Source: Mugil cephalus (taxonomy: Eukaryota). Taken from it: a DNA stretch of 64,000 nt. A program made the position numbers and the translations under genes. This document shows, piece after piece, positions 12,991 to 13,585 of the stretch. Each line of letters begins with the position of its first letter. Positions within the stretch are counted from its first letter, which is position 1. The notes beneath the pieces are model-generated. The model saw only the letters and a list, made by a program, of their open reading frames with translations, ran no database searches and was not told where the DNA came from. The stretch spans positions 8,322,591 to 8,386,590 of the forward strand of contig NC_061776.1 of NCBI RefSeq assembly GCF_022458985.1, in the 5' to 3' direction.

Positions 12991-13585
12991 TGCCATGGCG
13001 ATTGTTGACACGGTAAAGGCCGATCCAAGCCTCGGACACCGGCCGCTGGTGCGTGCCCCGGACCCGGACGGATCTTGGGCCGACGCTGCGGGAGGAGGAG
13101 TGCCGATTCACGGGCAGCCGCTCGGAGAAAGTGCGGTGGGGCGTGGGGCCTGTCTCCGCTCCGGGCTGGAGCTCCGCGTCGGCCGGAGCCTCCGGGCTCA
13201 TGGTGCCTTCCTCCTCGGGCTTCCCGTCGCTGTTGTTGTCGTCGTCCGCGGCGGGCGAAGCCTGTCCGATGCCGGAGGGGACGCTGCCGCTGCCGCTGCC
13301 GCTGCCGCCGCCGCTGTGGTGATGGTGGTGGTGGTGGTGGTGATGGTGGTGGTGGTCGGCGGGGCTGCCGTCCGCGCTCGCCCCGTGCTGCCCCAAATCC
13401 GAGTCGCTGCCTTCCTCCGATCGGCTCTGGTTGGCCTCCGTCTCCTCGAAGCTCACGGAGAAATCCACGACGAGGCTGGTGGGCCGCGGGCAGCGGGCTC
13501 GCCGGTACGAATCTCTCTTCGTGCCATCTTTTCGGAAAGGAGAGGGAAGCGGGTCTTCCTGAATGCGACTGGCTCTCGTCCCCAT
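12991..13585 (-). CDS. znrf2: znrf2-like first coding exon, N-myristoylation motif and poly-His
   Basis: ATG at 13583-13585 (minus) sits in a good Kozak context, agagATGG. The start is MGTRAS (G2/S6 N-myristoylation pattern), as in ZNRF1 MGGKQS and ZNRF2 MGAKQS. It has 13xHis, (GS)n and acidic Ser-rich low complexity. A perfect donor A|GTAAGT lies at plus 12985-12990. The exon is CpG-rich. Confidence 0.75.

What the first reader, a model, noticed from the sequence alone, without database searches (positions are those of the whole stretch)
12991..13585. znrf2-like exon 1 encodes a 13xHis tract, (GS)n and acidic Ser-rich tracts after an N-myristoylation-type start
The start MGTRAS keeps the N-myristoylation consensus of ZNRF1/2. 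The remaining roughly 190 aa are unlike the mammalian Ala/Gly-rich N-terminus and include HHHHHHHHHHHHH (CAC/CAT codons, 13318-13356 on plus) followed by SGGGSGSGSGS. Long His tracts are rare and can mediate metal binding or nuclear-speckle targeting, which is unexpected for a membrane-anchored E3. The CpG-rich composition creates long overlapping ORFs on both strands here, and only the minus-strand MGTRAS frame links to the downstream ZNRF exons.
Basis: partly seen in the sequence, partly recalled or inferred. Interest (0 to 1): 0.5.

Follow-up and report, generated by a model that had tools for sequence, protein, structure and literature searches.

The report
Poly-histidine microsatellite in fish ZNRF-like gene
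The 13-histidine run is real and sits in the first exon of a fish ubiquitin-ligase gene, but it is a species-variable coding microsatellite in a poorly conserved linker, and the gene is a little-noticed third relative of ZNRF1/ZNRF2, not znrf2 itself.

Summary
On the minus strand, 13585-12991 is a 595-nt first coding exon starting MGTRAS. It splices through GT-AG introns to three small exons that encode a C2HC zinc finger plus RING, giving 284 aa. An mRNA-derived contig from another fish maps onto exactly these four exons.

The gene is neither znrf2 nor znrf1. It belongs to a third clade (96% bootstrap) found in ray-finned fishes, coelacanth and lungfish. This clade is about 60% identical to both ZNRF1 and ZNRF2 in the finger-RING domain, and its N-terminus is unrelated to theirs.

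In that clade the site is ancestrally "DHH-S". Among 93 orthologues, 82 have at most 2 His, 11 have 4-10, and the window has 13, the longest seen. The DNA is a compound (CAC)n(AGC/GGC)n repeat whose lengths differ between species, and it lies in alignment columns that are 90% gaps.

The best reading is a slippage-generated, tolerated low-complexity insertion in a disordered linker of an N-myristoylated RING E3. A metal, pH or speckle function is unproven. This is ordinary and of low to moderate interest.

The parts
12991..13585 (-). Coding part of exon 1 (595 nt, 198 codons plus 1 base, phase 1), from the ATG to the GTAAGT donor at 12990
   Evidence: mRNA contig L002 positions 237-805 align to 13585-12993.
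13583..13585 (-). Start codon. MGTRASR fits the N-myristoylation pattern G-{EDRKHPFYW}-x2-[STAGCN]-{P}
   Evidence: All 111 orthologues that start with MG match the pattern. Sequence similarity to L. crocea begins at 'gctagagATGGGG'.
13397..13426 (-). SRSEEGSDSD acidic Ser cluster (aa 54-63), nearly invariant in the clade
   Evidence: nearly invariant columns S54-D63. Exact motif present in 98 of 120 orthologues.
13316..13354 (-). 13xHis tract (aa 78-90), encoded as (CAC)3 CAT (CAC)6 CAT (CAC)2
13283..13315 (-). SGGGSGSGSGS tract (aa 91-101), an (AGC GGC)n hexanucleotide repeat
   Evidence: L. crocea has only AGC GGC AGC at this position.
13112..13135 (-). RTFSERLP conserved motif (aa 151-158), a candidate basophilic-kinase site. 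It marks the start of the conserved C-terminal half of exon 1
   Evidence: Present in 102 of 120 orthologues. Conservation profile.
10963..11058 (-). Exon 2, the C2HC zinc finger (IRCPFCSKPFPGGRIEDHLLSCLTSPPLPYN)
   Evidence: L002 808-903 aligns exactly to 11058-10963.
10753..10858 (-). Exon 3, first part of the RING (DVLSKDSGECSICLEDLVQGETIARLACLCVYHK)
   Evidence: L002 904-1009 aligns to 10858-10753.
6959..7016 (-). Exon 4, end of the RING (SCIDSWSKVKPCCPEHPFD) plus the TGA stop
   Evidence: L002 1008-1073 aligns to 7018-6952.
13795..13837 (-). Conserved 5'UTR/promoter-proximal block upstream of the ATG
   Evidence: 90.7% identical to positions 30-72 of mRNA contig L002.

Best explanation
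Identity (shown). The region is the first coding exon of a 4-exon, 284-aa gene for a membrane-tethered RING E3 ubiquitin ligase of the ZNRF1/ZNRF2 family. It belongs to a third, bony-fish-retained paralogue clade, not to znrf1 or znrf2.

Mechanism of the protein (inferred by family analogy). Gly2 is N-myristoylated and anchors the protein to endomembranes. The roughly 195-aa N-terminal region is a disordered regulatory arm with conserved short motifs: a basic RxxS stretch, the SRSEEGSDSD acidic cluster, RTFSERLP and SEAWIGLYRV. The C-terminal C2HC finger plus C4HC2H RING recruits an E2 enzyme.

Origin of the tract (shown). The 13xHis plus SGGGSGSGSGS segment is a compound coding microsatellite, (CAC)n(AGC GGC)n. 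It grew by replication slippage from an ancestral 'GAC CAC CAC AGC' (D-H-H-S) seed, in the least conserved stretch of that arm.

Role of the tract (inferred). It most likely acts as a tolerated flexible spacer and is not required for function.
For: Gene model. All introns are GT-AG and the frame is continuous. The spliced CDS aligns in one HSP to an uninterrupted 276-aa ORF on a 1.1-kb Logan contig. That contig maps back to the window as four blocks with exactly the predicted boundaries.

Family. Residues 197-284 match human ZNRF1 (PDB 5ywr_B) at E=6e-34. Pfam zf-RING_2 is above its threshold. All zinc ligands are invariant.

Third clade. The identity matrix and NJ trees separate it from ZNRF1 and ZNRF2. 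Members occur in sturgeon, bichir, lungfish and coelacanth. Amia and gars carry both this gene and a canonical znrf1.

Slippage origin. TRF finds the two arrays. Codon-level comparison of four species shows CAC runs of 6-13 with occasional CAT, followed by species-specific (AGC)7, AGC GGC AGC or (AGC GGC)n. The distribution of the longest His run at the site in 93 orthologues is 0-2 in 82 and 4-10 in 11. Expansions are seen in at least four orders: Sciaenidae, Pleuronectiformes, Trachichthyiformes and Gobiiformes.

Location in a variable region. Columns holding the His and GS tracts are 90-92% gaps. Flanking conservation is 0.46-0.69, against 0.9 or more in the finger-RING. The AF2 model of the L. 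crocea orthologue shows no secondary structure and pLDDT below 50 for residues 1-183 (weak evidence).

Literature. His repeats typically arise late in one paralogue by slippage (PMC2644819).
Against: Both interruptions in the window tract are synonymous (CAT). The L. crocea orthologue keeps a 10-His run with an early CAT despite 26% divergence at 4-fold sites. This could mean the run is old and under some purifying selection.

Repeated expansion at the same site in several lineages could reflect selection and not only a mutational hot spot.

No data from the window's own species (RNA-seq or a second assembly) were available. Myristoylation, E3 activity and disorder are inferred, not measured. 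The AF2 model was low-confidence everywhere, including the RING.
Confidence: 0.72

Rival explanations
1. The His tract is a functional module. It would be a metal-binding (Zn/Ni/Cu) or pH-titratable segment next to an acidic phospho-cluster and a flexible GS linker. It would tune membrane association or partner binding of an endolysosome-associated E3, and it has been recurrently selected in some fish lineages.
For: Expansion recurs at the same site in at least four orders. Only synonymous interruptions occur in the window tract, and a long run is retained in L. crocea at 26% 4-fold divergence. Human His repeats are mostly conserved between human and mouse (PMC2644819). ZNRF2 acts at lysosomal and V-ATPase membranes, where pH matters (PMC4889327).
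Against: 82 of 93 orthologues have at most 2 His. Expanded tracts elsewhere are decaying, with N, S and Q interruptions. The adjacent repeat differs in each species. The tract lies in the least conserved region. No experimental data exist.
Confidence: 0.17
2. The His tract targets the protein, or a non-myristoylated isoform of it, to nuclear speckles, as shown for several human His-repeat proteins.
For: Runs of 5 or more His can direct nuclear proteins to speckles (PMC2644819). At 13 residues, this tract is near the human maximum of 15.
Against: The conserved MGxxxS start predicts co-translational myristoylation and membrane tethering, as for ZNRF1/2. No NLS was identified. Most orthologues lack the tract. 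In the human survey the speckle proteins were nuclear DNA- or RNA-related factors.
Confidence: 0.04
3. The tract is an artefact, either an assembly or polishing error in a repeat, or contamination by an engineered His-tag plus GS-linker cassette.
For: HHHHHH...SGGGSGSGS resembles recombinant tags. PDB hits to residues 80-101 are tag regions of unrelated recombinant proteins. Microsatellite lengths are error-prone in assemblies.
Against: The tract is in frame inside a conserved exon, with native flanks on both sides. Homologous tracts of 6-10 His occur at the same site in an independent NCBI assembly and in several Logan contigs, including an mRNA. The exact length of 13 could still be off by a unit or two.
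Confidence: 0.03
4. The gene is a teleost znrf2 (znrf2a/b) orthologue with a diverged N-terminus.
For: Several database entries for orthologues are named ZNRF2.
Against: Equally many entries are named ZNRF1, RNF6 or uncharacterized. The domain is 59-61% identical to both ZNRF1 and ZNRF2. The separate clade has 96% bootstrap and includes non-teleost and sarcopterygian fishes. There is no N-terminal homology to ZNRF1/2.
Confidence: 0.04

Closest known systems
ZNRF1 and ZNRF2 (N-myristoylated zinc-finger/RING E3 ligases; human ZNRF1 finger-RING structure PDB 5YWR)
   Same: Same architecture: an MGxxxS N-terminus, a long low-complexity N-terminal arm, a C2HC finger and a C4HC2H RING at the extreme C-terminus ending in CPEHPxD. 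The last 88 aa align to ZNRF1 at E=6e-34. The coding sequence is likewise split into one large first exon plus small finger/RING exons.
   Different: Only about 60% identical in the finger-RING, whereas ZNRF1 and ZNRF2 are 80% identical to each other. It has clade-specific substitutions (CPFC..PFPGGR, RLACLC, KVKPCCPEHPFD). The N-terminal roughly 170 profile columns have no detectable homology to ZNRF1/2. The mapped ZNRF2 sites Ser19, Ser82 and Ser145 (PMC4889327) cannot be aligned. The clade was found in bony fishes but not among tetrapod proteins in the best 150 representative clusters.
Orthologous fish proteins (e.g. Larimichthys crocea P0001, annotated 'ZNRF1'; catfish entries named after zebrafish zgc:66427)
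   Same: 89% aligned identity and an identical finger-RING. Same head-to-head neighbour, tep1. Same site carries a (CAC)n run with an early CAT.
   Different: L. crocea has 10 His followed by NN and a single SGS. The window has 13 His and an expanded (SG)n, a net in-frame difference of 9 codons at this site and a further 3 codons downstream.
Human His-repeat proteins (Salichs et al. 2009, PMC2644819), e.g. DYRK1A-type speckle-targeting tracts
   Same: A homopolymeric run of at least 5 His encoded mainly by CAC, arising in one paralogue only and attributed to slippage. The length of 13 is within the human range (mean 7.5, maximum 15).
   Different: Those proteins are mostly nuclear DNA/RNA-related factors with tracts conserved between human and mouse. 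Here the host is a predicted membrane-anchored E3, and the tract is absent from most orthologues.

Membership tests
ZNRF1/ZNRF2 family (mRING-CH-C4HC2H_ZNRF E3 ligases) | C-terminal RING with ligands C-x2-C-x14-C-x-C-x2-H-x2-C-x10-C-x2-H, ending in CPEHP | tested here: met
   C241, C244, C259, C261, H264, C267, C278 and H281 are invariant in 32 sequences. Pfam zf-RING_2 scores 30.5 bits against a 27.3 cutoff. The region aligns to ZNRF1 5ywr_B at E=6e-34.
ZNRF1/ZNRF2 family (mRING-CH-C4HC2H_ZNRF E3 ligases) | C2HC zinc finger (C-x2-C-x11-H-x3-C) immediately upstream of the RING | tested here: met
   C202, C205, H217 and C221 are invariant and align with the ZNRF1/2 finger.
ZNRF1/ZNRF2 family (mRING-CH-C4HC2H_ZNRF E3 ligases) | N-terminal myristoylation signal (Met-Gly, small residue at position 6) | tested here: met
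   MGTRASR fits the PROSITE-type pattern (recalled from memory). All 111 orthologues that start with MG match it. The modification itself cannot be tested here.
ZNRF1/ZNRF2 family (mRING-CH-C4HC2H_ZNRF E3 ligases) | E3 activity with UBE2N/UBE2D and membrane localisation | not testable with these tools
   Known for ZNRF1/2 from PMC4889327 and PMC10869362.
   59-61% identity to both ZNRF1 and ZNRF2. A separate clade at 96% bootstrap, with ZNRF2 itself at 94%.
   hhalign of the clade profile against a ZNRF1+ZNRF2 profile aligns only the last 90 columns.
Speckle-targeting His-repeat proteins (Salichs 2009) | Homopolymeric run of at least 5 His | tested here: met
   13 His.
Speckle-targeting His-repeat proteins (Salichs 2009) | Nuclear protein; tract conserved among orthologues | tested here: not met
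   Conservation fails: 82 of 93 orthologues have at most 2 His. Nuclear localisation was not tested. The predicted myristoyl anchor argues against it.
Coding trinucleotide microsatellite (slippage-derived homopeptide) | Near-pure codon repeat, length variable between close relatives, located in a low-conservation region | tested here: met
   TRF arrays. 11 CAC plus 2 CAT codons. Lengths of 6-13 across species, with a different adjacent repeat in each. The tract columns are 90% gaps.

The most novel reading that the evidence does not exclude
Bony fishes retain a third, unstudied ZNRF ligase that is apparently lost in tetrapods, with its own conserved regulatory arm. Repeated independent growth of a His tract at one site of that arm, reaching 13 His plus a GS linker here, would be adaptive. 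It would create a tunable metal- or pH-sensing element on an endolysosomal membrane E3.
Probability: 0.08. Interest if true: 0.55.

Novelty: new member of a known kind. Interest (0 to 1): 0.25.

Why it matters
The finding matters mainly for annotation. It shows that this fish gene, variously labelled ZNRF1, ZNRF2, RNF6 or 'uncharacterized' in public records, is a distinct third ZNRF paralogue with a conserved, clade-specific N-terminal arm. It also shows that the eye-catching His13-(SG)n segment is a lineage-variable coding microsatellite and not a conserved functional domain.

If the tract did prove functional, it would be an unusual example of a poly-His element on a lipid-anchored E3. Nothing here requires that. 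The third-paralogue observation is a modest but testable point for people working on ZNRF1/2 biology in zebrafish and other fish models.

Tried and rejected
- Looking up the window's spliced protein and the 215-aa exon-1 read-through ORF by exact match, to identify the species or other alleles. Length polymorphism within the species could therefore not be tested.
- Handing the spliced window protein to the exhaustive HMM search and to AlphaFold. I used an alignment of orthologues with L. crocea as the first row instead.
- The AF2 model was low-confidence throughout, including the RING. It is used only as weak support for disorder. No fold search was run.
- Deep synteny with tep1 as a paralogy marker. 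Synteny was dropped as an argument.
- The plus-strand ORFs of 198 and 176 aa were rejected as genes. They are not conserved in L. crocea and are composition artefacts.
- An Rfam scan of the whole window gave no hits.
- Literature search for 'zgc 66427' and for poly-His in teleosts found nothing relevant.
- My first exon coordinates were off by one base at two junctions and were corrected.

Full report

Yes. Reading 12700-13900 on the minus strand and listing ORFs shows an ATG at 13585 opening MGTRASRIQEDP... The frame stays open to a consensus donor (A|GTAAGT) after 12991.

Translation gives 198 codons plus one base. Thirteen consecutive His occupy residues 78-90. SGGGSGSGSGS follows immediately at 13315-13283.

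Tandem Repeats Finder independently reports a period-3 array (13.7 copies) and an adjoining period-6 array (5.8 copies). The acidic Ser-rich stretches are present. Exon 1 is 69% G+C with CpG observed/expected of 1.0.

They are not conserved: in the Larimichthys crocea orthologous exon every antisense frame has 2-6 stops.

**2. Gene model**

tblastn with ZNRF1/2 sequences recalled from memory located downstream zinc-finger and RING pieces on the same strand. Those query sequences were later validated: one search reproduced the ZNRF1 C-terminus from PDB, and one search returned 98%-identical ZNRF2 entries.

Reading the junctions and correcting an initial off-by-one gives four exons: 13585-12991, 11058-10963, 10858-10753 and 7016-6959. 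All introns are GT-AG. The CDS is 855 nt and encodes 284 aa.

A 1,106-nt Logan contig from run SRR19345900 carries an uninterrupted 276-aa orthologous ORF (P0003) and so must derive from spliced RNA. The window's spliced CDS aligns to it in a single HSP across all three junctions. When mapped to the genome, the contig breaks into four blocks with exactly the predicted boundaries, plus a conserved 5'UTR block at 13837-13795. In a related fish, therefore, the transcript starts upstream of the ATG and includes the His-tract region (HHHSHHHHHH there). RNA data for the window's own species were not available.

**3. What gene is it?**

Residues 197-284 match the human ZNRF1 finger-RING (PDB 5ywr_B, E=6e-34). 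Pfam zf-RING_2 is above its threshold. All zinc ligands are invariant among orthologues.

A search of 5.8 billion proteins returned more than 120 full-length relatives, all from ray-finned fishes including gar and bowfin. They are named inconsistently as ZNRF1, ZNRF2, 'zgc:66427' or 'uncharacterized'. The closest is L. crocea, with 89% aligned identity and an identical finger-RING.

A search with a ZNRF1+ZNRF2 profile showed that bowfin, alligator gar and a characiform also carry a separate canonical znrf1, about 93% identical to mammalian ZNRF1 in this domain. Over the 85-aa finger-RING, the window protein is 59-61% identical to both ZNRF1 and ZNRF2, which are 80% identical to each other.

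An exhaustive HMM search of 1.84 billion cluster representatives, followed by classification and name look-up, added sturgeon, reedfish (mis-named RNF6), African lungfish and coelacanth members. No tetrapod cluster resembled this clade among the best 150.

An NJ tree rooted on invertebrate homologues recovers the clade with 96% bootstrap. Its internal order follows the species tree. Profile-profile comparison aligns only the last 90 columns with ZNRF1/2, so the N-terminal arm is clade-specific.

The 'znrf2-like' label is therefore right at family level and wrong at orthology level. I found no paper describing a third vertebrate paralogue, though the literature search is limited.

**4. The His tract in context**

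The conservation profile of 32 orthologues shows that residues 1-63 and 146-284 are conserved (0.7-0.98). Residues 64-145 are variable. The His and GS residues fall in columns that are 90-92% gaps.

The common state at the site is GSPAD-HH-SIPSS. Of 93 orthologues where the site is recognisable, 82 have a longest run of 0-2 His and 11 have 4-10. The window's 13 is the longest seen.

Expansions occur in a sciaenid (10), turbot (4), Diretmus (7 plus more His), gobies (9) and several unnamed Logan samples (6-8). Many are interrupted by N, S or Q.

At codon level all are CAC-dominated with sporadic CAT. The repeat that follows differs by species: (AGC)7, AGC GGC AGC, or (AGC GGC)n in the window. 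This is the signature of replication slippage at a compound microsatellite.

Against L. crocea, the window differs by in-frame indels confined to this region, while 4-fold sites are 26% divergent. Both share an early CAT, so the expansion may predate their split. That, and the fact that both interruptions in the window are synonymous, is the only hint of constraint, and it rests on very small numbers.

**5. Mechanism**

Shown:
- family membership;
- the exon structure;
- the microsatellite nature, variability and location of the tract.

Inferred from ZNRF1/2 biology (PMC4889327; PMC10869362):
- Gly2 myristoylation tethers the protein to endomembranes;
- the finger-RING recruits an E2;
- the N-terminal arm is regulatory. 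Its conserved RxxS-type motifs (RPTSL, RTFSERLP, RPVSEAW) and its CK2-like acidic cluster (SRSEEGSDSD) are candidate phospho-sites, by analogy with ZNRF2 Ser19/82/145 and 14-3-3 binding, but they are not homologous to those sites.

The His13-(SG)n insert most likely acts as a tolerated flexible spacer. The AF2 model of the L. crocea orthologue shows no secondary structure before residue 184. However, the model is low-confidence overall, so this is weak support.

**6. Rivals**

- A functional metal or pH module is possible, given the recurrence of expansion and the synonymous-only interruptions, but it is unsupported.
- Nuclear-speckle targeting (PMC2644819) is unlikely for a protein with a conserved myristoylation start.
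- An artefact or tag contamination is unlikely because homologous tracts occur at the same site in independent assemblies and in an mRNA. PDB hits to residues 80-101 are merely His-tags of recombinant proteins.

**7. Verdict**

The feature is an ordinary, if unusually long, lineage-specific homopeptide expansion in an annotated but unstudied fish ZNRF paralogue. Novelty: new member of a known kind. Interest is about 0.25. The modestly interesting by-product is the evidence for a third ZNRF clade retained in bony fishes.

Noticed in passing
window 17241-42186 (+), probably beyond: The neighbouring gene, head-to-head with the ZNRF-like gene, is tep1 (telomerase-associated protein 1). ORFs hit TROVE (E=7e-34), DUF4062, a P-loop and WD40/TEP1 beta-propeller models. 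The same divergent arrangement is found in L. crocea. In spotted gar the upstream neighbour is instead a 7tm_1 GPCR.
   Followed up: partly
proteins P0245, P0247, P0249, P0389 and the clade: The window gene belongs to a third ZNRF1/2-family clade. It is present in teleosts, gar, bowfin, sturgeon, bichir, lungfish and coelacanth, and was not seen among tetrapod clusters. Public names are inconsistent (ZNRF1, ZNRF2, RNF6, zgc:66427, uncharacterized). I found no paper describing it.
   Followed up: partly
P0027 (Mugilogobius) around residue 130; P0049 (Eucyclogobius) around residue 129: Gobies carry a second His or His/Gln run (HHHHHQQQQQ; 8xHis) at a different position in the same variable linker. 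The linker is therefore generally prone to CAC/CAG-type expansions.
   Followed up: no
window 12995-13591 (+) and 13075-13605 (+): Two long antisense ORFs (198 and 176 aa) cover exon 1. They are not conserved in L. crocea, where all antisense frames carry 2-6 stops, and so are GC-composition artefacts.
   Followed up: yes
window 13795-13837 (-): A 43-nt block upstream of the ATG is 90.7% identical to the 5'UTR of an orthologous mRNA contig from a species whose CDS is only about 78% identical. It is possibly a conserved 5'UTR or core-promoter element.
   Followed up: no
window 13600-13650 (-) and 13690-13705 (-): A long C-rich polypyrimidine tract (ccccccccccc atccacctccccccctcacacccctcc) lies directly upstream of the start codon, with a T-run further upstream. 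Neither is present in L. crocea.
   Followed up: no
window 14934-15548 (+): A 204-aa Ser/Leu-rich ORF lies between the ZNRF-like gene and the first recognisable tep1 exon. It has no Pfam hit. Whether it is a tep1 5' exon, another gene or chance is unknown.
   Followed up: no
window 1195-4734: A cluster of pure microsatellites lies downstream of the gene's stop codon: (TA)30 at 1195-1254, (AC)15 at 3956-3986, (AGA)10 at 4245-4275 and (CTT)10 at 4704-4734. They account for the low-complexity ORFs listed at 2424-4280.
   Followed up: no
window 7017-10752 (-): Intron 3 of the gene is about 3.7 kb, longer than the entire L. crocea orthologous gene (3.3 kb). This suggests lineage-specific intron expansion, possibly by repeats or transposable elements.
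   Followed up: no
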